DNA of 36,639 bases from a virus. Taxonomy: Duplodnaviria > Heunggongvirae > Uroviricota > Caudoviricetes. Below, piece by piece: positions 1 to 10,998 of the stretch (positions within the stretch are counted from its first letter, which is position 1; each line of letters begins with the position of its first letter). The stretch lies in the IMG/VR virus record IMGVR_UViG_2548876956_000006. One strand, given 5' to 3'. The notes under the pieces are model-generated. The model searched no databases, was not told the DNA's origin, and saw only the letters and a program-made list of their open reading frames with translations. The translations under genes and the position numbers were made by a program.

Positions 1-60
1 GCAATCTCCCCTTACTTATCCGGAGGCAATTGCAATATCTCTGTGAACTTACACAGCGCT

Positions 61-201
61 ATGTCGCAAAAATCGCTTACGGCCATCACGTTCTGCGTGA
101 CGGTAATCCTCATCATCTGGATGCTGCACGGTTCGCTGTGTGAAATACGGATGAGCTTCTGGGGAGCGGAGTTTGCGGCGTTCTTACAGTGTAAGCAGTA
201 A
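61..201 (+). CDS. hok: Hok/Gef-family type I toxin (small membrane peptide, 46 aa)
   Basis: Short ORF absent from the ORF track (below length cutoff). Translation MSQKSLTAITFCVTVILIIWMLHGSLCEIRMSFWGAEFAAFLQCKQ has an N-terminal hydrophobic helix followed by the SLCE[IL] and AAFL motifs typical of Hok family members (closest by eye to HokA). Start codon choice is uncertain. Confidence 0.7.
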   Translation: MSQKSLTAITFCVTVILIIWMLHGSLCEIRMSFWGAEFAAFLQCKQ

Positions 202-287
202 GGAAACCGCGACGGGGGAGTAATCCCCCGTCAATCGGTTGCCAAGGCTGGCCGAAGTGGCACCCTATCCCATCGACAGAAACAATA

Positions 288-321
288 AAACCCGCAGCGT
301 AAAAACTGCGGGTTTTATTTT
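288..321 (+). terminator. Rho-independent terminator downstream of hok
   Basis: GC-rich hairpin cccgcag / ctgcggg followed by ttttatttt. Confidence 0.6.
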
Positions 322-392
322 GGAACTCTCACTTAGCTAGGGTACCGTTAACAACACACATAATGCTCGCAAAACAAACCAGTCAAAAGTAA

Positions 393-671
393 TTAATCAG
401 CATTCTCCTGCTTCCATTGCCGGATCATTTCATCAGTAACATCACTCTCATAACATACAACATCATACCCTCCAGTACGGCTATATGCACTGCGTCCACC
501 ACACCTACTACCATTCCTTGCATGATTATAAGGACACGCACAATTGCCTGGATATGATTCAATGGATTCTTTAATTATTTCTTTCTTGATCTGAACATCA
601 GACTTTCCTGTTGCTGCATACCCACTAAAAGATACCAAACAAAAGCAGATTGCCATTAATAAACCACATCG
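393..671 (-). CDS. Small Cys-containing secreted protein, host flank, unknown function
   Basis: AT-rich ORF. The internal Met at about 671 gives a signal-peptide-like N-terminus (MRCGLLMAICFCLVSFSGYAA); the longer upstream extension in the ORF track is probably not translated. Confidence 0.4.
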   Translation of the reverse strand, partial: RCGLLMAICFCLVSFSGYAATGKSDVQIKKEIIKESIESYPGNCACPYNHARNGSRCGGRSAYSRTGGYDVVCYESDVTDEMIRQWKQENAD

Positions 672-1140
672 CATACCGATACACTCTATTACTAACCAAT
701 CATAACCCACATCATAAAATCGAGATGTGGAGTACAACACCTTTAACAAGAAGGTGTCATAACGATAATATGTCGAGCAATTCATCAAAAAAAAGATCTA
801 TATCAAAGAGATAGAGCTCTTATCAGTACTGCAGACATCGGCATTCGAAGCAGCAGAAAAAACAGTAAATCTGACGAATTTGCCTTTTCTCAGGATGTTG
901 TCAGATTAAAAAAGATAGATTAGCGCAGGTACCTTTGGTGGATGGCTGGAGGAAAAATGAAGTCGAGTGGAAAAATCCCAGAAAAATTTTGTTTAACCGA
1001 AGTCTTGGTTCACTATGCGAAATACGGAGGAGCTGCAGGAGAATTCTGCTTCATCCTTAGAGCTTAAACAGCACGTGCACTATCATTGTTGTTTCTGCAT
1101 ATCGCCACACCACCGCCACTCTACCGCCATTGCTCAAAAT

Positions 1141-1171
1141 ACAAATACAAAAAAACCACCCGAAGGTGGTT
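1141..1171 (-). terminator. Rho-independent terminator (native terminator downstream of the tRNA-Leu locus)
   Basis: On the minus strand, hairpin aaccacc-uucg-ggugguu is followed by a U-tract; it lies just 3' of the tRNA fragment. Confidence 0.55.
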
Positions 1172-1215
1172 TCACGACACTGCTTATTGCTTTGATTTTA
1201 TTCTTATCTTTCCCA

Positions 1216-1270
1216 TGGTACCCGGAGCGGGACTTGAACCCGCACAGCGCGAACGCCGAGGGATTTTAAA
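1216..1270 (-). other. Partial tRNA-Leu(UAA) gene, 3' ~53-55 nt only (anticodon loop to CCA): prophage attachment-site core at the int-proximal junction
   Basis: Minus strand reads ...TTTAAAATCCCTCGGCGTTCGCGCTGTGCGGGTTCAAGTCCCGCTCCGGGTACCA, matching the 3' part of enterobacterial tRNA-Leu (leuZ-type) as I recall it. The sequence 5' of this does not form an acceptor stem or D-arm, so it is a fragment and not a gene. Confidence 0.6.
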
Positions 1271-1376
1271 AACTATCAACCACCATTTATAAATCATAAC
1301 CTTATGATTTTATTAACTTTGCAAATGGCTCTATACGACGCCATTTGAATCTATTGTCACTTTTTATCGCCACTTT

Positions 1377-2378
1377 TTACCCTCTATTGTCAAAAGGGTT
1401 TAATTCAACAGCAGCCTCTAAATGACCCGGAGCAAAATGCGCATAACGCATAGTCATTTTTATATCGCTATGCCCCAGTATTTTTTGCAACACAAGAATA
1501 TTTCCGCCCCGCATCATAAAATGACTAGCAAACGTGTGACGTAGCACATGAGTTAATTGCCCATCAAGGAGCTCTATCTTCGCTCTCTTAATTGCAGCGT
1601 CAAAAGCCTCATAACATGGTGAAAATAGCGCTCCTCGTTTTTTAGGAAGCATAGCCTGCAATTGAGGTGAAATCGGTACAGTGCGGTTCTTCTTTCCTTT
1701 AGTTTTAACAAATGTGATTCGACCGGGCAGTACTTGAGATTGCTTTAATCCTTCTGCTTCACTCCACCGAGCACCAGTCGCAAGCCCAATACGGACAACA
1801 ACCCCCAAATCTTTATTCCGTGACTCATCACACGCAATCAAAAGGCGTTCAATCTCATCTACATACAGAAACGCCAGCTCCTTTTCTTCCTCACGAAACT
1901 TGCGAATTCCAGTCAGGGGGTTTTCACCAGACCACTCCCCAAGGCGCTTCAGTTCGGCAAAAACAGCATGTAGATATGACTGCTCGCGATTAACGGTTGC
2001 TTCACTAAGTTTTTTCTTCCCCTTGGGATTCCATTCTCCTGATAGCCTTCTTTCCCGATAAGTAGCAAACATATTTTTGTCAAACTGAGAAGCAAATGGA
2101 TCTCCCAGCCTAGAACAAATCGCCTCAAGTTTGACTTTGCGCTCTGCACCAGAGGACAAGGTTTTGCCGTACATCTCAAACCAACGAGCAATCAACTCAG
2201 AAAGACGAGGACCAGAACCATCTTGAAACTCGTCTCCAACTCTACTATTCATTAAACGGCGCTCATAAGAGAGCGCCTCACTTTTTGTCGCAAACTGTTT
2301 ACGAATGCGTTTTCCCGATGCTCCGTAGGGATAACATTCGCAAAGCCATTTACCTGATGGAATCTTACGAACCGACAT
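1377..2378 (-). CDS. int: Tyrosine integrase (P2 Int family)
   Basis: 333 aa with the C-terminal catalytic region HVLRHTFASHF...GHSDIKMTMRYAH (R/H-x-x-R...Y signature). Adjacent to the att fragment. Confidence 0.9.
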   Translation of the reverse strand: MSVRKIPSGKWLCECYPYGASGKRIRKQFATKSEALSYERRLMNSRVGDEFQDGSGPRLSELIARWFEMYGKTLSSGAERKVKLEAICSRLGDPFASQFDKNMFATYRERRLSGEWNPKGKKKLSEATVNREQSYLHAVFAELKRLGEWSGENPLTGIRKFREEEKELAFLYVDEIERLLIACDESRNKDLGVVVRIGLATGARWSEAEGLKQSQVLPGRITFVKTKGKKNRTVPISPQLQAMLPKKRGALFSPCYEAFDAAIKRAKIELLDGQLTHVLRHTFASHFMMRGGNILVLQKILGHSDIKMTMRYAHFAPGHLEAAVELNPFDNRG

Positions 2379-2383
2379 TTTTG

Positions 2384-2731
2384 TTACTTATCACATAAAT
2401 CAAATGCAGCCTTAGTGACGTCCCCCAGATTCTTTTTTAACCCTGGGGCGGCATCATTATCTAGCCAAAATGGATTATTGTTATCTAACGGTAACGCACC
2501 AAATGTTTTACCTTTTATTCGAGCCAAACCTGTAAGCGCATATAACTTATTATCGTCAAAATTCATCACATAAGGATTACCATCAAGACACTGCAATTGA
2601 ACCTCATCTGTATTAAATGGCCATACTCCATTGAAACTCTCACGTTCAATAGTTTTAAAAGGCATTGCGACGGCGGAAAAAGAAAACATAGATAAAAAAG
2701 CAACTAATAGTTGAACCTTTTTTACTTTCAT
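2384..2731 (-). CDS. Small secreted/periplasmic protein (signal peptide, two Cys), unknown function; cargo gene
   Basis: N-terminus MKVKKVQLLVAFLSMFSFSAVA is a signal peptide; gene is AT-rich; sits 6 nt upstream of int on the same strand; SD gagg is 9 nt before the ATG. Confidence 0.6.
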   Translation of the reverse strand: MKVKKVQLLVAFLSMFSFSAVAMPFKTIERESFNGVWPFNTDEVQLQCLDGNPYVMNFDDNKLYALTGLARIKGKTFGALPLDNNNPFWLDNDAAPGLKKNLGDVTKAAFDLCDK

Positions 2732-2760
2732 GTCATTGCCTCAATTTAGCTCAAGTAAGA

Positions 2761-3411
2761 TTACAAATTAAAAAACATCCTAGAAATGACTCCGCCTACC
2801 AAAACCCCTACGCAGATAAAGAATATTATTTCTTTTGGATAAAATCGGATTAATTCTGAAGCACGAAGGCGGACTTCTGGTAAGGTCGAATTCTCTGTGT
2901 GGCTTGATACCGATTGTTGCTCCAACCACGACAATGCAGACTGTAACTGAGAACGAGTAAGATCGTTTAAACGTCCTGTACCGAAATTGATATGGCAATA
3001 CCGCAGAAGTTTTTGTCGAAGTCCACAGTCTTCACTGTTACGTAGTAATAAACTTACAAGAGTCTTACAGGCATCATGATCTTTACATCGCTCAAGCATT
3101 GTATGCAGAAAACTCTCCGCTGTTTTATATTGATTTATTGTCATATCATCAATACCAGCTACACCAATCTCCGCATGTACTTTTTGCCAAATAATAAACG
3201 CTTCAGTATTGCTAGCTTCTGCAATAGCAGCAACCAAGCTATTTAGCTCCTTACGCTGTGCCTTAAGCAAAGGGCGAGCGTCATCATCATTATTCGAAGG
3301 GATTGCGATATTGACGGTATGAGAACCATCATATCGCTCTATCTGAATATTCTTTTCGTGAAAATCACGCCCAGCAACGCGATTGTTTGAACCGTTTGAG
3401 TTGACGGCCAT
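2761..3411 (-). CDS. Tail-anchored membrane protein (C-terminal TM helix), unknown function; cargo gene in the repressor-int operon
   Basis: 216 aa; strong SD GGAGGTGAC before the ATG; C-terminal hydrophobic segment IIFFICVGVLVGGVISRMFF; no family recognised. Confidence 0.6.
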   Translation of the reverse strand: MAVNSNGSNNRVAGRDFHEKNIQIERYDGSHTVNIAIPSNNDDDARPLLKAQRKELNSLVAAIAEASNTEAFIIWQKVHAEIGVAGIDDMTINQYKTAESFLHTMLERCKDHDACKTLVSLLLRNSEDCGLRQKLLRYCHINFGTGRLNDLTRSQLQSALSWLEQQSVSSHTENSTLPEVRLRASELIRFYPKEIIFFICVGVLVGGVISRMFFNL

Positions 3412-3426
3412 GTCACCTCCCTACTA

Positions 3427-3831
3427 TCACCTACCCTTAGTTTCGTTATAGTCACGACCAGCGATACGGTTATTACCACCAGAAATATTTAACTCACGCC
3501 CTGATGGCTGAGTTTCCTTTTCACTGCCCGCACCTTTTAAAGCCCCGATCACCGCGTTTTTTACATCTAACGAAGCTGCTCGAAAGCGAGTAATCAACTC
3601 CTGCTCATCATCGTTATAAGTTTCAGGTGAGTGAATTCCCAACACAACATACTGAACATCAAGGCCAAAACGAGACAGCGCTGCCAAATACGCAGCATCA
3701 GGAAAGCTATCTCCTTTCTCATATCTAAGCTGAGTTAGCTTTTTGACTCCACCAATGTCGCTCATAGCAACTTGACTAAGCCCCAATCTTTCCCTTTCCT
3801 CACGCAACCGCTGACCAATATCATTTTTCAT
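3427..3831 (-). CDS. HTH (XRE/Cro-CI type) transcriptional repressor, probable prophage immunity repressor
   Basis: N-terminal HTH (IGQRLREERERLGLSQVAMSDIGGVKKLTQLRYEKG); divergent from the early operon; first gene of the minus-strand operon ending in int. Confidence 0.7.
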   Translation of the reverse strand: MKNDIGQRLREERERLGLSQVAMSDIGGVKKLTQLRYEKGDSFPDAAYLAALSRFGLDVQYVVLGIHSPETYNDDEQELITRFRAASLDVKNAVIGALKGAGSEKETQPSGRELNISGGNNRIAGRDYNETKGR

Positions 3832-3840
3832 ACAAAAACC

Positions 3841-3869
3841 TTGACAGGTATCTTTTTTGATACCAAAAT
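3841..3869 (+). promoter_or_regulatory. Early promoter with operator palindrome (GGTATC-N6-GATACC) between repressor and early operon
   Basis: TTGACA, then a 17-nt spacer containing the perfect dyad ggtatcttttttgatacc, then caaaat; located about 40 nt upstream of the 3907 start. Confidence 0.35.
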
Positions 3870-3906
3870 GATTTCACGAGCTATTAGATGATCACAATAT
3901 ACCACT

Positions 3907-4113
3907 ATGAAACAAGTTCTTCACGATACCAGATCACGCATTCCGCGTAACACCGCCACAGGTCCAAGACTGGCACTTCGGCTGTCCCTCGAGGAGCGAG
4001 CCGTCATTGATGAAATGGCAGCTAAAGAACAACGCTCATCCTCTAACATGGCGCGCATGATCTTCCTTCGCGGCCTAGAGCTAACCCAGAAAGAACAAAA
4101 CAAATCTTCCTGA
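3907..4113 (+). CDS. Small ribbon-helix-helix-like regulator (Cro/Apl-position early regulator)
   Basis: 68 aa; LALRLSLEERAVIDEMAAKEQRSSSNMARMIFLRG resembles an RHH beta-strand plus two helices; first gene of the early rightward operon. Confidence 0.45.
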   Translation: MKQVLHDTRSRIPRNTATGPRLALRLSLEERAVIDEMAAKEQRSSSNMARMIFLRGLELTQKEQNKSS

Positions 4114-4129
4114 TCAGGAGGCTAGTGGG

Positions 4130-4333
4130 ATGTCAGGTATAACCATCAATATCAATGTGAATGCCCCCTATGTATCCCTGCAGAAATATGCAGAGATAAC
4201 AGGTATCCCTCTTAATACATGCAAAAAGATGTTGGCTGACGGTCGAATTATTATCCGCCCCAAACGTGCCAAAATGGAAAAGCCTGAAGTAAACCTTGTG
4301 GCGATGTTAAAAGACGCTTTGGCTAACAGCTAA
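4130..4333 (+). CDS. Excisionase/Cox-like small HTH DNA-binding protein
   Basis: 67 aa; VSLQKYAEITGIPLNTCKKMLADGRI is HTH-like, as in Xis/AlpA/Cox-type proteins. Confidence 0.45.
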   Translation: MSGITININVNAPYVSLQKYAEITGIPLNTCKKMLADGRIIIRPKRAKMEKPEVNLVAMLKDALANS

Positions 4334-4354
4334 AACAATGAACAGAGCATCATC

Positions 4355-4705
4355 ATGAAAAAAAACGCTAATAATCCATACTCCAAATTTCGTAATGGCG
4401 TAGAACGCCATGTACACCACGTCGCTACCAGTGCATCACGTAGTAACAATCGCTATAACCTGAACGAAACGCACGCAACACCAGATGGGCACGCTGTAAA
4501 ACAAATCGGCGAACACACCTGGCTGATTGAGAAAGCTGGAATAGTGGTTCACAGATGCTCACGCAATCCGTTTACCGGAAACCGCATTTTTGCATTAAGC
4601 AACGGCGATAATCAGTTCGGGCAGGATTTTACATTGTACGAAGCACTGCGCACAGTCGATCGTTTGCTTCGCGGGCAAAGTTTTATTAAACAGGCTGATT
4701 TATAA
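4355..4705 (+). CDS. Early-region hypothetical protein
   Basis: ORF with protein-like composition in the early operon; no family recognised. Confidence 0.45.
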   Translation: MKKNANNPYSKFRNGVERHVHHVATSASRSNNRYNLNETHATPDGHAVKQIGEHTWLIEKAGIVVHRCSRNPFTGNRIFALSNGDNQFGQDFTLYEALRTVDRLLRGQSFIKQADL

Positions 4706-4715
4706 CAGGTGCTTT

Positions 4716-4994
4716 ATGACTAAAGACCATGCACAAGGTGTATTTATCCGCTTTATTGATTTTCGCGGTGAACTGTTATTACGAGCATCAGCTATTGACG
4801 GAGTAGTTCCATCTGAAAAAAATGCAGCTACCTACGTTTATCTGAACGGTACGCGCCTGACAGTAGAACTTCCGTACCAGACCGTTCGCGAAATAATTAA
4901 CGAAGCTGAAAAAGCTAGTCAGGTTAATGGCGATGAACCCTATATCGAAATTATCTGCATGGATTCAGAAGCTGAAATTCAGAAAGCAGATTAA
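4716..4994 (+). CDS. Early-region hypothetical protein
   Basis: ORF tightly spaced in the early operon; no family recognised. Confidence 0.45.
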   Translation: MTKDHAQGVFIRFIDFRGELLLRASAIDGVVPSEKNAATYVYLNGTRLTVELPYQTVREIINEAEKASQVNGDEPYIEIICMDSEAEIQKAD

Positions 4995-5005
4995 AGGGCG
5001 TTGCG

Positions 5006-5248
5006 ATGGGCAAAGAATATAAAACTCTCATAAACAAAGCACTTGAGCGTTTTTATTTTCGCTTAAGTGCATCAGGTACTCATGCTGAACGTGCAGCCCG
5101 TGACTCATTGACCAGGGCAATCCGGAGTCTGTATGACGTGGCTTTTTACGCTGATGATCTGGATGCACTTAACGAACTTTCCGAGCTGATCTGTGCCGCA
5201 GAATGCGGGGAGCATATTGAACCGTATAAGCTGGGGAATATTGCATGA
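5006..5248 (+). CDS. Early-region hypothetical protein
   Basis: ORF in the early operon; no family recognised. Confidence 0.45.
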   Translation: MGKEYKTLINKALERFYFRLSASGTHAERAARDSLTRAIRSLYDVAFYADDLDALNELSELICAAECGEHIEPYKLGNIA

Positions 5249-5358
5249 GTATATTTATCTCATGGCTTGTTCTGATTATTTCGGTGGTCTGCGCCATTGG
5301 GATTATGCGAATTATTCGTTCAGTAAAAAAGATTGACCGCTTTTTCACTGGCGAATAA
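5245..5358 (+). CDS. Small single-pass membrane peptide (37 aa)
   Basis: ATG overlaps the stop of the upstream gene (ATGA); translation MSIFISWLVLIISVVCAIGIMRIIRSVKKIDRFFTGE is a hydrophobic helix plus a basic tail. Not in the ORF track (short). Confidence 0.3.
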   Translation: MSIFISWLVLIISVVCAIGIMRIIRSVKKIDRFFTGE

Positions 5359-5445
5359 CAGCGCAAATAAAAACCCTAGGTTAAATAAGAAAATGTAAAA
5401 ACAATCCGCATTCGCGGAGGTATTCGCACACGCCCAGGAGGTGTA

Positions 5446-5649
5446 ATGGCAATTAAGCATTTTCCTGTCGTTCGTTTCACTTCCAGAGGACGTGAATACG
5501 AAGTCGACGAACGCCTGATTACCACAATCGACAAACACCGCTCAGAAAAGGATGCACACCACATCTATCTCACTGACGGTACTTACTTCTGCGCCACTAA
5601 TGTGGCGCGGGTGAATCTTATCAGACAGGTACAGGATCCACGCAAATGA
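5446..5649 (+). CDS. Early-region hypothetical protein
   Basis: ORF; overlaps the next gene by 4 nt (translational coupling). Confidence 0.45.
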   Translation: MAIKHFPVVRFTSRGREYEVDERLITTIDKHRSEKDAHHIYLTDGTYFCATNVARVNLIRQVQDPRK

Positions 5650-5864
5650 GCAGGAGAAGAATCACTCGCAAACATCACCGCACACACCTGAATTCCTCAG
5701 CAACGCTAAGGGCACTTATTAAAAGCGAGATCGGTGATTTCTTCGCGGGAGTTGGCTCACCAGGTGAACCAGAAACACCAGAAGCGATACAGCGTGAGCT
5801 CATGATACGCATAGATAGCACTTTTGATTTCTTCTACAGCATGCACGGAATTAAACAGAAATGA
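5646..5864 (+). CDS. Early-region hypothetical protein
   Basis: ORF in the early operon; no family recognised. Confidence 0.4.
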   Translation: MSRRRITRKHHRTHLNSSATLRALIKSEIGDFFAGVGSPGEPETPEAIQRELMIRIDSTFDFFYSMHGIKQK

Positions 5865-5972
5865 ACCTCAAGCCAGCAATAACTACTCGTAGAACGCCAA
5901 TTCCTGTAACCGACCGCTTCTGAGTTTTTTGGCAGGAAGCCTTCGCACATCCTTAGTAGAGAGAATTGCAGC

Positions 5973-6362
5973 ATGATTGACGCTCATGACTTCACAAGAT
6001 GGGTGCGCACACAGGACACCCGTCTGGCTCCCGTTCTTCAGGGATTATTTGATCTCTACATCCGTGGTCGTGACAACAGAGCACGCACTACAAAACCGGA
6101 GAATGCGGACACCCTTTATTTCACAGTAGACGACTGCTACCGCGTGGACTTAACACCACACGGGCTGGCGTTGCGCTGCCTGACACCGCATGGCGAATCA
6201 CTGCTGGCGTATTACGACTCCCCGGCCTCCGTATTTGCGGCAATGCTGGCGCATCACACTGCTGGCGGGTGTGCCTCGCTGAGTGAATACACCGCTGAAT
6301 TTAACCGCCTTTCCACCATCTTCTCGCAGGAGTGGCAGCGCGTGACGGGATACCAGCCATGA
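5973..6362 (+). CDS. Early-region protein immediately upstream of A (position of P2 B/orf83-like genes)
   Basis: 129-aa ORF whose stop overlaps the A start (ATGA). Confidence 0.5.
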   Translation: MIDAHDFTRWVRTQDTRLAPVLQGLFDLYIRGRDNRARTTKPENADTLYFTVDDCYRVDLTPHGLALRCLTPHGESLLAYYDSPASVFAAMLAHHTAGGCASLSEYTAEFNRLSTIFSQEWQRVTGYQP

Positions 6363-9199
6363 GTGAGTTTACATGGAGCTGGAATGAACCACGGCCAGCC
6401 ATTGAGCCGGACAGATTTACGGAGCGCAGGCAGGAAACTGAAACCGACCTGCAACGCGCCATCCGTTACTACCTTGAGGCGGACAAAAAGGCCCGGAAAG
6501 AACAGGAAGCGAAGGAGGAAGCCTTTTTCGCACAATCCACCGTGGGTAAAAAACTCATGGCATCCCTTGAGGAAGCCGGACAGCGTGAAAAGCTGGCACA
6601 AAGCATCATCAGCAAGCGTCAGGCAACAGAACAAGACCCGGTGGCCCGTGCTTTTGCCACACTGAAGGTGCTTCCCGTTTATCTGCGTGAACCTCTGAGC
6701 CGCCACCTCTCTTTCCTGCACAAAAAACAGGAATCCGATCGTCAGAAAGGCAAAAAGAGCTGGCAGGCTGAACGCTACGCGCGCGGAACCCTGCGCAAAA
6801 TATTCGAACGTCTGGACCGCACCGACAGCCGTTGGCTGACACCGGGTTATCGGTCCCTTGCCGGACGTGAACGCCTGGACGATTTGCTTTACCTGCCGCA
6901 GCTCAACAAACACCAGATACAGACGCTGGCCACCATGACGGCGGCGATGTTCAGCAGCACCTTCGAAAAACTCTGCGATGGTTTTGGCGCGACTGATGGC
7001 GAGCTGACCATGGATGTAACGCTGAAGGCGTATCAGATGCTGGCCCGCATGGCGTTACACTTGCACGCCATGCCTCCGCATTATGACGCACTGACAACAG
7101 ACAAAGACCGGAGGAACGAACCGGACACAGAACTGCTGCCGGGCGCAATCCTTCGCCTGACCTGTGCAGAATGGTGGAAACGCAAACTGTGGCTGTTACG
7201 TTGCGAGTGGAGAGAAGAACAACTCCGCGCCGCCTGTCTGGTTTCCAGAAAAACATCGCCCTATCTGAGTCAGGACGCGTTAAGCGAGTTTCGCGCACAG
7301 CGCGAGAAAACACGCGATTTCCTGAAAAGTTTCATGCTGGAAAATGAAGACGGGTTCACGATTGATCTCGAGACGGTGTATTACGCGGGAGTAAGTAACC
7401 CGGTTCACCGTAAGGCAGAAATGATGGCCACCATGAAGGGGCTGGAACTTCTGGCCGAAGCCCGTGGCGACAGAGCGGTGTTTCTGACTGTCACCTGCCC
7501 GTCAAAATACCACGCTACAACAGAGAACGGTCATCCGAACCCCAAATGGAACGGGGCCACCATGCGCGACTCCAGCGATTACCTGGTTAACACGTTTTTT
7601 GCGGCGGTCCGCAAAAAACTGAACCGCGACGGTCTGCGCTGGTATGGCATCCGCACGGTGGAGCCTCACCATGACGGCACTGTGCACTGGCATATGATGG
7701 TCTTTGCACATCCGGACGAGATTGAAACCATCGTGTCCCACGTCTGCGATATTGCCATTCAGGAAGACCGCCACGAGCTGGGCGATGACATAACTCCGCG
7801 TTTTAAGGCGGAGTACGTAGACGGCTCAAAAGGCACACCAACCAGCTACATCGCCACCTACATCGGAAAGAACCTGGACAGCCGCGCCGTGGATGGCATC
7901 GACCCGAAAACGGGCAAGCCACGCGTTGACCACGAAACCGGAAAATCAATGGCCGAGAGCGTGGAACGCGCCATCGGCTGGGCGCGCCTTCACCGGGTCC
8001 GCCAGTTCCAGTTCTTTGGTATCCCCTCCCGTCAGGTGTGGCGTGAACTGCGCCGCCTTGCCAGCCAGATGGCACGCAACCCGGAAGGCCCGCAACGGCT
8101 GAAGGATGACGCAATGGATGCGGTACTCGCTGCCGCTGATGCCGGGTGTTTTGCCACCTACATTGAAAAACAGGGTGGTGTGCTTGTTCCACGCAAAGAC
8201 TACCTGATTCGCACCGCCTACGACCTCGCAGATGATCTGAACGATTACGGTGAGCAGAGTGTACAGATTTACGGGATCTGGTCGCCGCTCATCGGGGAGT
8301 CTTCCCGCGTATGCACGCATCCGGATAACTGGAAGCTGGTAAGACGCAAACCAGAACAGGAAGGTAGCGCCCACGAAAATGGTTTTGACCTTCAGGGCGG
8401 CCCTGCCGCCCCTTGGACTCGTGGCAATAACTGTCCCCGTGAACAGGAAACAGACAACAACGGGACAGAACAGCCGGAAGAACGGCCAGCACCGTGGCCG
8501 CAGCTCCCTGACAGCGTTGAAGTGAACGAATGGATGCATTCACTGAAACGGCACGAACGCCGGGCGCTGATGCGTTCGCTTCGTGACAAACAGGCAAAAA
8601 ACAGCAGCGATGAAATGCAGAACTGGACACAGAGCCGCAAACAGCCACAGCCTTTGCCTGATAACCACGAGTTACTCGCTAAAGAATGGCGGGAGTCTGC
8701 TGAATCTCTCGGCCTGCATATTGGTGAACAGCAGATGCAGCACCTGTTACGGGGCGGCAGTCTGTACGTTGACGGCAGCATCATTGCACCGCAGGGATTT
8801 GAAATTGTACGCAAACCGGATACCCGCCCGGACAGCCGAATCACGCAGCTCTGGCAACGCCTGAGCCGTAATCACGGCGTAAGCAGCACGGAGATCCGCC
8901 ATAACCCGGTCGCCAGCTATCTGGAACAGCTGGGGGCATCAGACCCTGAAGCCGCCGCACGCCTGGCATCCACACTTCAGCAGGACCAGAACACCATGAA
9001 AACCCCCGTTACCGTGCTTTCTGACATGCTGCGCGCCATCCGTGACGCAGAGCACGCCCAGAGAATCAGTGAAACCACTGAACGCGCCCGCCGCAAAGCA
9101 GACCTGCTGCGGGGTAGCCTGACCAGTGGAAACAAAAAACAGACAGAAACGGGACTCACAAATCCCGTAAATGAGCAAAAAACGTGCCGCGATATATGA
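6359..9199 (+). CDS. A: Replication initiation protein, P2 gpA-like rolling-circle endonuclease
   Basis: Large ORF in the position of P2 A; contains an HxH-type motif (VHWHMMVFAHPDE) typical of Rep-family nickases. Start taken at the ATG overlapping the upstream stop; the ORF track starts at 6332. Confidence 0.8.
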   Translation: MSEFTWSWNEPRPAIEPDRFTERRQETETDLQRAIRYYLEADKKARKEQEAKEEAFFAQSTVGKKLMASLEEAGQREKLAQSIISKRQATEQDPVARAFATLKVLPVYLREPLSRHLSFLHKKQESDRQKGKKSWQAERYARGTLRKIFERLDRTDSRWLTPGYRSLAGRERLDDLLYLPQLNKHQIQTLATMTAAMFSSTFEKLCDGFGATDGELTMDVTLKAYQMLARMALHLHAMPPHYDALTTDKDRRNEPDTELLPGAILRLTCAEWWKRKLWLLRCEWREEQLRAACLVSRKTSPYLSQDALSEFRAQREKTRDFLKSFMLENEDGFTIDLETVYYAGVSNPVHRKAEMMATMKGLELLAEARGDRAVFLTVTCPSKYHATTENGHPNPKWNGATMRDSSDYLVNTFFAAVRKKLNRDGLRWYGIRTVEPHHDGTVHWHMMVFAHPDEIETIVSHVCDIAIQEDRHELGDDITPRFKAEYVDGSKGTPTSYIATYIGKNLDSRAVDGIDPKTGKPRVDHETGKSMAESVERAIGWARLHRVRQFQFFGIPSRQVWRELRRLASQMARNPEGPQRLKDDAMDAVLAAADAGCFATYIEKQGGVLVPRKDYLIRTAYDLADDLNDYGEQSVQIYGIWSPLIGESSRVCTHPDNWKLVRRKPEQEGSAHENGFDLQGGPAAPWTRGNNCPREQETDNNGTEQPEERPAPWPQLPDSVEVNEWMHSLKRHERRALMRSLRDKQAKNSSDEMQNWTQSRKQPQPLPDNHELLAKEWRESAESLGLHIGEQQMQHLLRGGSLYVDGSIIAPQGFEIVRKPDTRPDSRITQLWQRLSRNHGVSSTEIRHNPVASYLEQLGASDPEAAARLASTLQQDQNTMKTPVTVLSDMLRAIRDAEHAQRISETTERARRKADLLRGSLTSGNKKQTETGLTNPVNEQKTCRDI

Positions 9200-9275: not shown

Positions 9276-10235
9276 ATGAAAATTTGTATCGACGACGGCT
9301 CCACCAACATCAAGCTGGCATGGACTGAGAACGGCGAACGCCGCAACGCCATCAGCCCGAACAGCTTCAAGTCGGAATGGTCTGCGCCGTTCGGTGGCAC
9401 GCAGCCCGCGAACTACATGCTTGATGGCGTGCGCTATGGTTTTGATCCGGTCAGTGATCGCTTTGTCCAGACGACCGACACGCAATACCAGTACAGCGAT
9501 GTGAATGTCATTGCCATTCATCACGCGCTGGTCAAATCAGGCATCACGCCACAGGAGGTGGATATGGTTGTCACCCTGCCACTGAGCGAGTATTTCGACA
9601 CAAACGCACAGCCGGACATGGCCAACATCAACCGCAAAAAAGCAAACGTTATGCGCCCGGTGGAATACCAGAACGGCGAAGCATTCACTATCCGTAATGT
9701 ACGGGTTATGCCTGAATCCATTCCGGCTGGCTTTAAAGCACTGGCTGACATGAGTCCGTTTGAATCCCTGCTGATTGTGGATTTAGGTGGAACCACGCTG
9801 GATGTGGCAAAGGTTCAGGGACAACTGGCAGGTATCAGCCAGGTGTTTTGCGATCCACACGTAGGCGTTTCCCTGATGGCCGATGCAGTACTGTCGGTGA
9901 TGGCCACTAACGGTATGCGTACCAGTCACCACATCGCCAATACCATTATCGAACATCGCCATGATGAAGCCTGGCTGCGCCAGCACATCCACAATGACGC
10001 GCATTACGCCAGCCTGATGGCGGTTATTCGTGAAAAGGAAGAAACACTGAAACAACGCGTGATCCGCGCGCTGGCGGGTTTTTCGGGTTACGGGCGGGTG
10101 ATGGTTGTCGGTGGCGGGGCGGAGATTGTGGCACCCGCTATCCGCGAAGCCTGCGGAGTTAATGCGACTTTCATCGCGGACGGGGTGCCACAGTTTGCTC
10201 TGGTTAATGGGCTGTACGCAATGGACAAGGAGTAA
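9276..10235 (+). CDS. parM: ParM/StbA-family actin-like plasmid-segregation ATPase
   Basis: 319 aa; N-terminus MKICIDDGSTNIKLAW plus PNSFK, QYSDVNV, VMPESIPAG, DLGGTTLDV, FSGY, VVGGGAE and LVNGLY closely parallel plasmid R1 ParM as I recall it. Confidence 0.85.
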   Translation: MKICIDDGSTNIKLAWTENGERRNAISPNSFKSEWSAPFGGTQPANYMLDGVRYGFDPVSDRFVQTTDTQYQYSDVNVIAIHHALVKSGITPQEVDMVVTLPLSEYFDTNAQPDMANINRKKANVMRPVEYQNGEAFTIRNVRVMPESIPAGFKALADMSPFESLLIVDLGGTTLDVAKVQGQLAGISQVFCDPHVGVSLMADAVLSVMATNGMRTSHHIANTIIEHRHDEAWLRQHIHNDAHYASLMAVIREKEETLKQRVIRALAGFSGYGRVMVVGGGAEIVAPAIREACGVNATFIADGVPQFALVNGLYAMDKE

Positions 10236-10239
10236 ACCA

Positions 10240-10551
10240 ATGACGACACCAACCAGACGAATAAGTTTCTATCTGAAGCCCGCCGCCGTCAAGAACGAAG
10301 GCGAAGCATGCGCCTGGCTGGACAGCCTTACACCAGAAGCCCGTAAAAACGGCCAACGCGTGGCTTTTCTGGCTGGGCTGGCGCTTCTGAAAATGAATCC
10401 GGCAGAGGCTTACCGACTGGCAGCATGGGCTGACGATGAGGCGTTATCAGTGACACAAACCAGGACAGAACGCCCCCTGTCACAGCCAGTACCAACCGCA
10501 CAGATAACCAGTCAGATGGCCGGAAATATCAGGGCGTTATTTCCTGAATAA
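10240..10551 (+). CDS. parR: ParR-like small DNA-binding partner of ParM
   Basis: 103 aa directly after parM; RRISFYLKP...AWLDSLTPEARKNGQRVAFLAGLALLK...IRALFPE parallels R1 ParR (RRTIAFKLNP...DSIPQGERSR...AALTAGLAL...LRSLFPKE). The ORF track extends the frame upstream into parM; the ATG at 10240 is the plausible start. Confidence 0.6.
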   Translation: MTTPTRRISFYLKPAAVKNEGEACAWLDSLTPEARKNGQRVAFLAGLALLKMNPAEAYRLAAWADDEALSVTQTRTERPLSQPVPTAQITSQMAGNIRALFPE

Positions 10552-10614: not shown

Positions 10615-10998
10615 ATGAGCAAAATCAACTATCAGGCATTACGTGAACGTTATTCACCTGCACCAGTACCAAAATGCCCTATTTGCGGCGAAGAAATGTC
10701 AATTCAGCGAATATCTGGAGCACTGGTTGTTTATGGCTGCTCCGGTTATGGTGATGAAGGAGATTTCAAAATTGGTCGAACTCTTGCCGACGAACATTAT
10801 GAAAAATCACGCGTAACAGTGTTGGATGTCGGGGATCCTGAAGTATTGGCGCTACTTGATTGGCTGGAAACCAAAGACAACCGAATCGCTGAACTGGAAA
10901 AAATCGCCACTGACTATGCACTTAAATTCCAGAAAGCACAGGACGCATTAAAGTACGCCGCTTTGCTGCATAGCAGGACAGTGCAGCTACAAGACTAA
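10615..10998 (+). CDS. Hypothetical protein with CxxC and C-terminal coiled-coil-like region
   Basis: 127 aa; CPICGEE...YGCSGYG; no family recognised. Confidence 0.45.
   Translation: MSKINYQALRERYSPAPVPKCPICGEEMSIQRISGALVVYGCSGYGDEGDFKIGRTLADEHYEKSRVTVLDVGDPEVLALLDWLETKDNRIAELEKIATDYALKFQKAQDALKYAALLHSRTVQLQD

What the first reader, a model, noticed from the sequence alone, without database searches (positions are those of the whole stretch)
2384..3411. Two-gene membrane/periplasmic cassette inserted between the immunity repressor and int, co-transcribed in the lysogen
In P2 the repressor gene lies directly next to int. Here two extra genes sit between them on the same strand with tight spacing (repressor, 15 nt, 216-aa gene, 29 nt, 115-aa gene, 6 nt, int), so they should be expressed with the repressor in lysogens. 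The 216-aa product has a C-terminal TM anchor; the 115-aa product has a signal peptide and two Cys. The 115-aa gene is markedly AT-rich. Genes expressed from the lysogenic operon and targeted to the envelope are typical of superinfection exclusion or lysogenic conversion, but I cannot place either protein in a known family.
Basis: partly seen in the sequence, partly recalled or inferred. Interest (0 to 1): 0.7.

Follow-up and report, generated by a model that had tools for sequence, protein, structure and literature searches.

The report
Phage repressor paired with membrane partner
The two extra genes are real but are not one cassette: the 216-aa gene is a membrane-anchored partner found next to every motif-bearing repressor of this type examined and shares a co-varying end motif with it, which suggests a previously undescribed repressor-to-membrane link, while the 115-aa gene is one of many swappable cargo genes (a periplasmic YebY-like protein).

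Summary
On the minus strand lie the repressor (3427-3831), a 216-aa gene (2761-3411), a 115-aa gene (2384-2731) and int (1377-2378), with gaps of 15, 29 and 5 nt.

Both proteins can be placed in families.
- ORF115 is a DUF2511/YebY-family periplasmic protein. It has a signal peptide, the conserved Trp and the disulfide Cys pair.
- ORF216 is an Flk_N-domain protein with a tail anchor.

They are not one cassette. In 16 P2-like loci from about 14 genera, repressor and Flk_N gene are always adjacent. The slot before int varies: DUF2511, BRCT proteins, DUF8087, membrane proteins, or nothing. PSP3 carries DUF2511 in the same slot without Flk_N.

The unexpected result concerns two disordered ends. 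The repressor's C-terminal tail and ORF216's N-terminal head carry the same roughly 17-aa motif (NR[IV]AGRD[YF].E).
- The motif changes class in Mu-like phages, and both partners change together (5 of 200,000 random pairings score as high).
- Synonymous sites differ, so gene conversion does not explain it.
- In Gilliamella the tail and partner swap as a unit, once to a membrane protein that is not Flk_N.

I infer a direct tail-head interaction that couples the repressor to a membrane protein. Whether it is amyloid-like, and what it achieves, is untested. This is a new variant of a known kind; interest 0.72.

The parts
3427..3831 (-). Immunity-type XRE/HTH repressor, 134 aa. HTH at residues 5-64, helices 74-105, disordered tail 102-134.
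   Evidence: Pfam HTH_31/HTH_3; PHROG repressor families. It lies divergent from the Arc-like and Cox-like early genes. AF2: core pLDDT 77-94, tail about 40.
3442..3492 (-). Repressor C-terminal tail motif LNISGGNNRIAGRDYNE (residues 114-130), followed by TKGR and the stop codon.
   Evidence: Near-invariant in 16 P2-like loci although the HTH cores are only 35-60% identical. Found in 48 of 120 listed repressor homologs, with other motif classes in many of the rest. The motif occurs only twice in all six frames of the window.
3412..3426 (-). Junction between repressor and ORF216. After the TGA stop of the repressor come TAG TAG GGA GGT GAC, in the same frame, carrying the Shine-Dalgarno sequence for ORF216.
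   Evidence: Gap lengths in related loci (2 to 18 nt) are not all multiples of 3, so a readthrough fusion is not conserved.
2761..3411 (-). ORF216: a phage-type Flk_N protein with a disordered head (1-45), an Flk_N helical core (46-173), a linker, and a C-terminal transmembrane tail anchor.
   Evidence: phrog_5825 at 1.9e-101; NCBIfam Flk partial match at 3.3e-15; PF27202 Flk_N on close homologs; hhalign against true Flk 98.9%, E 1.7e-17; AF2 mean pLDDT 86.7.
3355..3399 (-). ORF216 N-terminal head motif SNGSNNRVAGRDFHE (residues 5-19), which matches the repressor tail.
   Evidence: Local alignment with the tail scores 62. Conserved at the N-terminus across the family. Low pLDDT of 53-63.
2893..3276 (-). 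Flk_N helical core of ORF216 (residues 46-173).
2770..2829 (-). C-terminal transmembrane helix (tail anchor) of ORF216, about residues 195-214.
   Evidence: The hydrophobicity maximum lies 16-19 residues from the C-terminus across the family. AF2 gives a helix at 192-215.
2384..2731 (-). ORF115: a DUF2511/YebY-family periplasmic protein, a cargo gene in the variable slot before int.
   Evidence: PF10709 at 25.9 bits against a cut-off of 21. PDB 7n0j YebY at E 0.007. phrog_2950 at 1.7e-39. Trp37, Cys48 and Cys113 are invariant in an alignment with YebY and PSP3 gp28. GC 0.359.
2666..2731 (-). Signal peptide of ORF115 (residues 1-22, MKVKKVQLLVAFLSMFSFSAVA). There is no lipobox Cys.
   Evidence: Read from the sequence. 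Homologs have the same n-h-c layout. The family is reported as periplasmic (PMC8689200). No signal-peptide predictor was run.
1377..2378 (-). P2-type tyrosine integrase, the last gene of the leftward operon.
   Evidence: Int_N at 5e-32 and Phage_integrase at 2.5e-22.
3907..4333 (+). Divergent early genes: Arc-like RHH protein (3907-4113) and Cox-like DNA-binding protein (4130-4333), which mark the immunity switch.
   Evidence: phrog_3431 Arc-like repressor at 9.8e-29. Annotation of phage 520873. A promoter-like site lies at 3841-3869 on the plus strand.

Best explanation
The window holds the left end of a Xuanwuvirus-type P2-like prophage of E. coli. Its leftward, lysogenic operon reads repressor, ORF216, ORF115, int. 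The two extra genes are two separate things.

(1) ORF216 is the dedicated partner of this class of repressor. It faces the cytoplasm, is tail-anchored in the inner membrane, and has an Flk_N helical core. Its disordered N-terminal head carries the same short motif as the disordered C-terminal tail of the repressor. I infer that tail and head bind each other directly, as a homotypic, probably beta-type contact, so that the repressor is physically coupled to a membrane-anchored protein. The most likely consequence is control of how much active repressor is available, that is, the setting or tripping of the lysis-lysogeny switch in a repressor that has no RecA-cleavable domain.

(2) ORF115 is an independently acquired cargo gene in the variable slot between the partner gene and int. 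It encodes a secreted, disulfide-bonded YebY-like protein. By analogy with YebY (which damps an inner-membrane importer) and MlbQ (proposed to bind a lantibiotic), it most likely binds an envelope component or an incoming molecule in the periplasm of the lysogen, giving lysogenic conversion or exclusion.

Shown here: gene structure, family membership, invariant repressor-partner adjacency, slot variability, motif sharing and its co-variation. Inferred: physical interaction, its direction and outcome, co-transcription, and the ligand of ORF115.
For: Families.
- ORF115 is DUF2511/YebY.
- ORF216 is Flk_N plus a tail anchor.

Adjacency.
- Repressor followed by an Flk_N gene, with a 2-18 nt gap, in 16 of 16 distinct P2-like loci from about 14 genera.
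- The same arrangement occurs in Mu-like transposable phages.

Slot variability.
- Contents seen: DUF2511, BRCT proteins, DUF8087, membrane proteins, a signal-peptide protein, or nothing.
- PSP3 and a Klebsiella phage have DUF2511 between cI and int without any Flk_N gene.
- This context was already noted in PMC8689200.

Motif.
- The tail and head motif are the only two occurrences in the window.
- Cognate tail-head alignment sum was 370 against 148 +/- 11 for shuffled tails.
- Across 10 distinct pairs the cognate sum was 425 against 272.6 +/- 35.9 for random pairing; 5 of 200,000 random pairings reached it. Inside the non-P2 class, 168 of 40,320 did.
- At identical residues only 55 of 99 third codon positions agree, so the match is kept at the protein level.
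- Both segments are disordered in AF2 models.

Modularity.
- Gilliamella repressors P0284 and P0288 have near-identical cores but different tails, and each partner's head matches its own tail.
- One of these partners is a 2-TM protein that is not Flk_N.
- A repressor homolog without the motif (P0327) has no Flk_N gene downstream.

Repressor architecture.
- The repressor has no peptidase domain.
Against: - No interaction was measured or modelled.
- The P2-type motif is highly charged (R, R, D, E, K), which is not typical of strong beta-aggregating segments.
- The loci are related by descent, so permutation p-values overstate independence.
- One locus (L043) has an Flk_N protein with a long N-terminal extension next to a repressor without the motif.
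- In L040 an 88-aa gene separates the pair.
- Co-expressing a repressor with something that sequesters it from the same promoter is not obviously useful, so the direction of control is open.
- The Flk_N fold gave no informative structural match.
- For ORF115 there is no functional evidence at all: no PADLOC hit and no similarity to K139 Glo.
Confidence: 0.55

Rival explanations
1. Amyloid-like signalling leading to abortive infection or exclusion. The repressor acts as a sensor, for example of an incoming antirepressor, a satellite derepressor or superinfecting DNA. Its tail then templates the head of ORF216. ORF216 oligomerises in the inner membrane and kills or blocks the cell. This would follow the logic of lambda RexA/RexB and the mechanism of Bab/Agp or HET-s/NWD2.
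For: - The genomic hallmark used to define amyloid-signalling pairs is met. That hallmark is a matching motif of at least 15 aa at the C-terminus of one product and the N-terminus of the product of the adjacent collinear gene, with a tiny intergenic distance.
- One partner is membrane-targeted.
- The motif is modular: in Gilliamella it sits on a different membrane domain.
- Non-P2 motif classes are rich in G, N, Q and V, for example QVFHGKVGQSIAGNV.
- Many heads carry two pseudo-repeats (GRDF..N.Q[IV], then GRD[IL]VNI) against one in the tail.
- An E. coli prophage system with this mechanism exists, Bab/Agp with BASS11.
Against: - Neither partner has the domains seen in known systems: no NLR, STAND or TPR sensor, and no Bell or HeLo executioner.
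- A strictly conserved position next to the repressor, with the truly variable defence-type cargo lying downstream, fits a core switch component better than an accessory defence.
- Flk itself is a regulatory lock, not a pore former.
- The P2-type motif is charged.
- Amyloid formation was not tested.
Confidence: 0.25
2. ORF216 and ORF115 are ordinary morons that independently give superinfection exclusion or lysogenic conversion at the envelope. The shared motif is a leftover of a junction duplication, or a common signal for a host factor such as a protease, with no direct tail-head contact.
For: - K139 has cI-orf2-glo-int with a periplasmic exclusion protein in the same place.
- The integrase-to-primase region of P2-like phages is a minor known hotspot for defence systems.
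- ORF115 is AT-rich like a recent acquisition.
Against: - ORF216 is not variable: it is present in 16 of 16 loci.
- The motif class changes in both partners together, even between near-identical repressor cores in one host genus. A host-factor signal would not require that.
- Synonymous sites have diverged, so the match is not a recent duplication.
- No fused HTH-Flk_N protein appeared among the 87 and 232 homologs found.
Confidence: 0.15
3. ORF216 interferes with the host flagellar export switch as a truncated Flk mimic, giving lysogenic conversion of motility, and is unrelated to the repressor.
For: Clear homology of the core to the N-domain of Flk. Same topology as Flk, a cytoplasmic domain with a C-terminal anchor.
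Against: - It does not explain the matched motif.
- It does not explain the strict pairing with the repressor.
- It does not explain the presence of the family in Gilliamella and in Mu-like phages.
- It does not explain the replacement of Flk_N by another membrane domain while the head is kept.
- The match covers only the first 151 positions of the 339-position Flk model, and the score is far below the equivalog cut-off (56 against 353 bits).
Confidence: 0.05

Closest known systems
Vibrio phage K139 lysogenic operon cI-orf2-glo-int
   Same: A P2-like phage in which two extra genes sit between repressor and int on the same strand, annotated as transcribed from PL with the repressor. The gene next to int encodes a periplasmic protein annotated as involved in phage exclusion. 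A homolog of K139 Orf2 (33% identity over 282 aa) sits in the variable slot of Kosakonia and Enterobacter relatives of this prophage.
   Different: Glo shows no similarity to ORF115 (E 12). Orf2 is a BRCT protein, not Flk_N. The K139 cI tail and the Orf2 head were not compared, so whether K139 has a shared terminal motif is unknown.
Flk (Fluke/RflH) of Salmonella and E. coli
   Same: Homologous N-terminal helical domain (hhalign 98.9%, E 1.7e-17, 152 columns). Both are cytoplasmic proteins held in the inner membrane by a C-terminal anchor. Flk acts as a protein lock on a switch, the flagellar type III secretion specificity switch.
   Different: Flk is about 330-348 aa, lacks the N-terminal motif, is chromosomal and is not next to a repressor. 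ORF216 scores 56 bits against the 353-bit equivalog cut-off.
YebY (E. coli AZY operon; PDB 7n0j) and MlbQ (Microbispora lantibiotic self-resistance protein)
   Same: ORF115 belongs to the same Pfam family. It has a signal peptide, the conserved Trp and the Cys pair that forms the stabilising disulfide in YebY. The occurrence of yebY-like genes between a recombinase and a phage CI repressor has already been reported.
   Different: It has no copC/copD neighbours. Its ligand or target is unknown.
Salmonella phage PSP3 gp28 (and Klebsiella phage RCIP0057, phage SEN1)
   Same: A DUF2511 gene in the same slot, directly between the immunity repressor and int of a P2-like phage.
   Different: About 29% identity. 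The repressor is an unrelated 186-type cI of 286 aa, and there is no Flk_N partner.
Amyloid-signalling gene pairs (fungal HET-s/NWD2; bacterial BASS1-10; E. coli prophage Bab/Agp with BASS11)
   Same: A short matching motif at the C-terminus of one protein and the N-terminus of the product of the adjacent collinear gene. The genes are almost abutting, one partner acts at the membrane, and the motif is combined with different domains.
   Different: Here the C-terminal carrier is a DNA-binding phage repressor. The N-terminal carrier is a tail-anchored Flk_N protein or a 2-TM protein. There is no NLR, TPR, Bell or HeLo domain. Amyloid behaviour is untested.
Lambda cI-rexA-rexB (from general knowledge, not tested here)
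   Same: Accessory genes co-transcribed with the repressor in the lysogen. One product is cytoplasmic and one is a membrane protein, and together they act as an exclusion system.
   Different: No sequence relationship was seen: PADLOC gave no hit. Rex proteins share no terminal motif with CI as far as I know.

Membership tests
DUF2511 / YebY (PF10709) | Match to the family HMM above Pfam's gathering score | tested here: met
   25.9 bits against a cut-off of 21, covering profile positions 2-87 of 87. PDB YebY 7n0j at E 0.007.
DUF2511 / YebY (PF10709) | Two conserved Cys that form the stabilising disulfide (Cys48-Cys113 in YebY) and the conserved Trp | tested here: met
   Trp37, Cys48 and Cys113 are invariant in the alignment with YebY, PSP3 gp28 and eight homologs. 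The disulfide itself is reported in PMC8689200.
DUF2511 / YebY (PF10709) | N-terminal signal peptide and extracytoplasmic location | tested here: inconclusive
   The sequence has a basic n-region, a hydrophobic h-region and AVA before Met23, and homologs look alike. No predictor or experiment was run.
DUF2511 / YebY (PF10709) | Four-stranded sheet with four helices (the YebY/MlbQ fold) | not tested
   No structure model was made for ORF115.
Flk_N domain proteins (PF27202) / Flk | Homology to the N-terminal domain of Flk | tested here: met
   NCBIfam Flk at 3.3e-15 over residues 38-168. PF27202 on the 96%-identical cluster representative and on all neighbours. Profile-profile comparison 98.9%, E 1.7e-17, against sequences confirmed as Flk equivalogs.
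Flk_N domain proteins (PF27202) / Flk | C-terminal transmembrane tail anchor with a cytoplasmic N-domain | tested here: met
   The hydrophobic maximum lies 16-19 residues from the C-terminus in nearly all full-length members. AF2 gives a helix at 192-215. Topology is inferred from Flk.
Flk_N domain proteins (PF27202) / Flk | Full-length equivalence to the flagellar regulator Flk | tested here: not met
   56.2 bits against the 353-bit cut-off. Only profile positions 21-151 of 339 match. The protein is 216 aa against about 330-348 aa for Flk.
Amyloid-signalling motif pairs (BASS/FASS type) | Matching motif of at least 15 residues at the C-terminus of one protein and the N-terminus of the product of the adjacent collinear gene | tested here: met
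   17-residue ungapped match in the window. Cognate against random pairing: 5 of 200,000. Gaps of 2-18 nt. The criterion is as described.
Amyloid-signalling motif pairs (BASS/FASS type) | Sensor partner of NLR, STAND or TPR type, and an executioner with a Bell- or HeLo-like domain | tested here: not met
   The partners are an XRE HTH repressor and an Flk_N tail-anchored protein. No PADLOC hits for ORF216.
Amyloid-signalling motif pairs (BASS/FASS type) | The motif forms cross-beta fibrils and propagates by templating | not testable with these tools
   Only disorder of both segments in monomer models could be shown.
Known superinfection-exclusion or defence proteins | Sequence homology to a characterised exclusion or defence protein | tested here: not met
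   PADLOC gave no family for ORF115 or ORF216. K139 Glo against ORF115 gave E 12. The PHROG families are of unknown function.
Variable accessory-gene slot of P2-like phages (integrase-to-primase region) | Different, unrelated genes at the same position between conserved flanks in related phages | tested here: met
   Between the Flk_N gene and int: DUF2511, BRCT proteins of 288-292 aa, DUF8087 proteins of 85-111 aa, membrane proteins of 242-244 aa, a 126-aa signal-peptide protein, two-gene sets, or nothing. A minor hotspot in this region is reported in PMC13586616.

The most novel reading that the evidence does not exclude
A temperate-phage immunity repressor is wired to a membrane protein by a prion-like or amyloid-type templating motif. 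The repressor's disordered tail and the partner's disordered head co-assemble. This would give the lysis-lysogeny switch, or a repressor-guarding abortive-infection response, an all-or-none, self-propagating trigger. The module (tail plus partner) moves as a unit between P2-like and Mu-like phages and can use different membrane domains.
Probability: 0.25. Interest if true: 0.9.

Novelty: new variant of a known kind. Interest (0 to 1): 0.72.

Why it matters
How P2-type and many Mu-type prophages without a RecA-cleavable repressor sense when to leave the host is poorly understood. A repressor whose disordered tail is matched, class by class, to the head of a membrane-anchored partner encoded by the next gene suggests a direct line between the genetic switch and the cell membrane.

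The module is common, and the claim is directly testable with tail and head mutants and motif swaps. It sits in about 1 in 10 complete E. coli genomes and in many Enterobacterales, Gilliamella and hosts of Mu-like phages.

If the contact is of the templating type, amyloid signalling would extend from NLR-type immune pairs to transcriptional repressors.

Separately, the slot before int is a compact place to look for lysogen-expressed accessory genes. Those seen here include DUF2511, BRCT/K139-Orf2-like and DUF8087 genes.

Tried and rejected
- PSP3 cI as a fused repressor-Flk_N protein: rejected. No similarity to either window protein.
- Readthrough or in-frame fusion of repressor and ORF216: rejected. 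Three consecutive stops in the window, and gap lengths in other loci are not multiples of 3.
- Gene conversion or recent duplication as the source of tail-head similarity: rejected. Nucleotide identity is 293 of 441, and only 55 of 99 third positions agree at identical residues.
- A motif that binds the Flk_N core: weakened. The Gilliamella partner keeps the head but has no Flk_N core.
- A third motif carrier in the prophage, such as an antirepressor: none found in six frames.
- Homology of ORF115 to K139 Glo: none.
- Defence-system models: none for either ORF.
- Searches that failed technically:
  - locus searches with the diverse alignments;
  - P0172 in viral contigs;
  - Nesper 1999 is not held in the library;
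  - afdb50 is not available;
- Rfam on 1-6000: no hits.
- Literature search for a repressor-membrane partner motif pair: nothing found in the held library.
Full report
**1. What is there**

The minus strand of the window carries four genes in a row:
- an XRE-type HTH repressor (3427-3831, 134 aa);
- a 216-aa ORF (2761-3411);
- a 115-aa ORF (2384-2731);
- a P2-type integrase (1377-2378).

The gaps are 15, 29 and 5 nt. The early genes lie divergently on the plus strand: an Arc-like gene at 3907-4113, a Cox-like gene at 4130-4333, DUF4761, and further on a gpA-like replication protein at 6332-9199.

Both extra genes have Shine-Dalgarno-like sequences. The scan found no terminator-like site on the minus strand between repressor and int. 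ORF115 has the lowest GC, 0.359 against 0.509 for the window.

The region is 97.5% identical to Escherichia phage 520873 (Peduoviridae, Xuanwuvirus). In that record the two ORFs are unannotated because the sequence breaks them into pieces. At 80% coverage or more, the segment 1200-4400 is present in 516 of 5426 complete E. coli genomes. RefSeq calls the genes 'DUF2511 domain-containing protein' and 'hypothetical protein'.

**2. ORF115**

ORF115 matches Pfam DUF2511 above the gathering score, the crystal-structure sequence of E. coli YebY (7n0j) and phrog_2950. In an alignment with YebY, PSP3 gp28 and eight homologs, the invariant columns include Trp37, Cys48 and Cys113.

In YebY the two Cys form a stabilising disulfide. 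[quoted passage not shown] YebY also lowers copper import by the inner-membrane protein YebZ (PMC11923076).

The same paper already notes yebY-like genes between a recombinase and a phage CI repressor in Enterobacteriaceae. I confirmed this. PSP3, SEN1, vB_EcoM-613R3 and Klebsiella phage RCIP0057 all have a DUF2511 gene (about 27-29% identical) in this slot; in the three neighbourhoods inspected it sits directly between a 186-type cI and int.

ORF115 is therefore a new member of a known family in a known context. What it binds is unknown. It has no PADLOC match and no similarity to the periplasmic exclusion protein Glo of K139.

**3. ORF216**

ORF216 matches phrog_5825 and the N-terminal part of NCBIfam's Flk model (3.3e-15, far below the equivalog cut-off). 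Its close homologs carry Pfam PF27202, Flk_N. A profile of 41 phage-type members aligns to a profile of confirmed Flk equivalogs with 98.9% probability (E 1.7e-17, 152 columns).

The AF2 model (mean pLDDT 86.7) has these parts:
- a disordered head, residues 1-45;
- a very confident helical core, residues 46-173;
- a short linker;
- a C-terminal helix.

The hydrophobic maximum lies 16-19 residues from the C-terminus throughout the family. That is the tail-anchored topology of Flk, a cytoplasmic protein that helps lock the flagellar export switch. Structure searches gave nothing informative.

The family is small: 87 clusters at 50% identity. It splits into true Flk (about 330-348 aa, no N-terminal motif) and phage-type proteins (about 185-225 aa) that begin with a short conserved motif.

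**4. Not one cassette**

I looked at 16 distinct P2-like loci from Escherichia, Klebsiella, Rosenbergiella, Mixta, Izhakiella, Enterobacter, Erwinia, Kosakonia, Buttiauxella, Symbiopectobacterium, Yersinia, Hafnia and Serratia.

In every one the order is repressor, then the Flk_N gene (gap 2-18 nt where the start codon is clear), then a variable stretch, then int. The variable stretch holds one of the following:
- DUF2511 (this window and Rosenbergiella);
- BRCT proteins of 288-292 aa;
- acidic DUF8087 proteins of 85-111 aa;
- membrane proteins of 242-244 aa;
- a 126-aa protein with a signal peptide;
- two-gene sets;
- nothing.

These contents are documented. One of the cargo genes is a homolog of K139 Orf2 (33% identity over 282 aa).

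A recent survey lists the integrase-to-primase region as a minor defence hotspot of P2-like phages (PMC13586616). So ORF115 is cargo in a variable slot, and ORF216 belongs with the repressor.

The repressor-Flk_N pairing also occurs in Mu-like transposable phages, next to a transposase, an IclR-type HTH gene and Mu gp27-like genes. The pair therefore behaves as an immunity module shared by unrelated phage types.

**5. The shared motif**

The repressor ends ...LNISGGNNRIAGRDYNETKGR. ORF216 begins MAVNSNGSNNRVAGRDFHEKN... These are the only two occurrences of the motif in all six frames of the window. Both segments are disordered in the AF2 models (pLDDT about 40 and 53-63).

In all 16 P2-like loci the repressor tail is nearly invariant (KAAALAALTAG..S..I.VSG.GNR[VI]AGRD[YF]NENKK), although the HTH cores are only 35-60% identical. 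The partner's head carries the same motif.

In other lineages the motif belongs to other classes, and the two partners change together:
- L031: tail QQFNGPVGTVTTGDVVN, head QQFHGAVEQVAAGDIKN.
- L033: tail QIFNGDISGQFAGNQIIN, head QEFNGTAQGQFSSRDIIN.
- L040: tail VVHGDVGQTVKGNV, head IIHGDVGIVAEGDV.
- L041: tail QVFHGKVGQSIAGNV, head QVFREDVGQAVAGDL.
- L047: tail GEGQIAGGNIY, head TAEQIAGRDIY.

The statistics are as follows.
- The summed local-alignment score of cognate tails and heads was 370 against 148 +/- 11 for shuffled tails (8 pairs).
- For 10 pairs the cognate sum was 425 against 272.6 +/- 35.9 for random pairing. It was reached by 5 of 200,000 random pairings.
- Within the non-P2 class alone, 168 of 40,320 pairings reached it.
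- The pairs are related by descent, so these numbers are not true probabilities. However, similarity between a tail and a head can persist while the motif itself changes only if both change in parallel.
- The match is kept at the protein level. Nucleotide identity of the two coding segments is 293 of 441. At identical residues only 55 of 99 third positions agree.

**6. Modularity**

Two Gilliamella repressors (P0284, P0288) have almost identical cores but different tails. Each has a partner whose head matches its own tail.
- One partner is an Flk_N protein.
- The other is a 152-aa protein with two predicted membrane helices and no Flk_N domain.

So tail and partner are exchanged as a unit. What is kept is 'matching head plus membrane anchoring', not the Flk_N core. 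This weakens the idea that the motif is a ligand for the Flk_N core. The class changes within one host genus weaken the idea of a host-factor signal such as a degron.

A repressor homolog without the motif (P0327, another E. coli P2-like prophage) has no Flk_N gene downstream.

There are two exceptions. L043 has an Flk_N protein with a long N-terminal extension next to a repressor without the motif. In L040 an 88-aa gene separates the pair.

Tails usually end in a Lys/Arg-rich stretch. No fused HTH-Flk_N protein was seen. Readthrough is excluded by three consecutive stops here and by gap lengths elsewhere that are not multiples of 3.

**7. Mechanism**

The best-supported reading is that the repressor tail and the partner head contact each other directly, which couples the repressor to a membrane-anchored protein. 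That step is inferred, not shown.

What follows from the contact is open. I lean towards control of repressor availability, for three reasons:
- the partner is a fixed part of the immunity module, whereas accessory genes sit in the next slot;
- the repressor lacks a cleavable domain;
- Flk is a regulatory lock.

The main rival is an abortive-infection or exclusion device in which the repressor triggers the membrane protein. The layout meets the genomic criterion used to find amyloid-signalling pairs, namely matching termini of adjacent collinear genes. An E. coli prophage example, Bab/Agp, is known. But neither partner has the domains of those systems, the P2-type motif is charged, and fibril formation cannot be tested here.

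I did not find this repressor-partner motif pair described in the held literature.

**8. Verdict**

'One cassette' and 'no known family' are not.
- ORF115 is an ordinary new member of DUF2511 in a known phage context.
- ORF216 together with the repressor tail is the interesting part: a widespread, apparently undescribed repressor-membrane partner module with a co-varying terminal motif.
- I rate it a new variant of a known kind, with interest 0.72.

Noticed in passing
window 9276-10551 (+): A plasmid-type partition pair sits between the gpA-like gene and the portal side of this integrated P2-like prophage. It consists of a ParM/StbA actin-like ATPase (PF06406 at 3.9e-82, PF21523 at 1.3e-68) and an overlapping ORF with a StbB/ParR-like 'plasmid stability' domain (PF10784 at 5e-24). 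An Ead/Ea22-like gene follows at 10615-10998. None has a PADLOC hit.
   Followed up: partly
window 3412-3429 (-): Repressor and ORF216 are in the same reading frame, separated by three consecutive stop codons (TGA TAG TAG) and GGAGGTGAC. Gap lengths in related loci are not all multiples of three, so this is not a conserved readthrough.
   Followed up: yes
loci L021-L023 5663-6538; L015 (K139) 2194-3099: The 291-aa gene in the variable slot of Kosakonia and Enterobacter prophages is a homolog of K139 Orf2 (33% identity over 282 aa, E 3e-51). Klebsiella and Enterobacter soli loci carry a different BRCT protein there, with the BRCT domain at the N-terminus.
   Followed up: partly
loci L009, L018, L024, L025 (slot between the Flk_N gene and int): A recurrent small, very acidic protein (85-111 aa, DUF8087, with the motif GLYVSK.DP..R..V.DV) occupies the slot in several genera. 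Its function is unknown.
   Followed up: no
window 1-1270: The left flank holds a Hok/Gef-family ORF (43-201, +), a 131-aa Cys-rich ORF with a signal-peptide-like start (393-788, -), and what reads as only the 3' part of a tRNA-Leu at about 1215-1270 (the att copy). ARAGORN finds no whole tRNA in the window. This flank differs from the yecA flank seen in strain WP7-S18-ESBL-09.
   Followed up: partly
window 3907-4113; L001 6722-6859: In L001, RefSeq annotates a 45-aa ORF on the repressor strand at the position that corresponds to the plus-strand Arc-like gene of the window (window 3907-4113), and lists no Arc-like gene there. The PHROG match (9.8e-29) supports the Arc-like gene.
   Followed up: no
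loci L044 3357-4132 and L029 5609-6257: A two-gene set recurs before int in P2-like prophages, both with and without the Flk_N module. [quoted passage not shown]
   Followed up: no
Escherichia phage 520873 record (L002 2040-3080): In the only named phage with this module, ORF115, ORF216 and int are broken into pieces. ORF115 and ORF216 are not annotated, and int is annotated as two separate CDSs. This is probably sequence error in the record.
   Followed up: no
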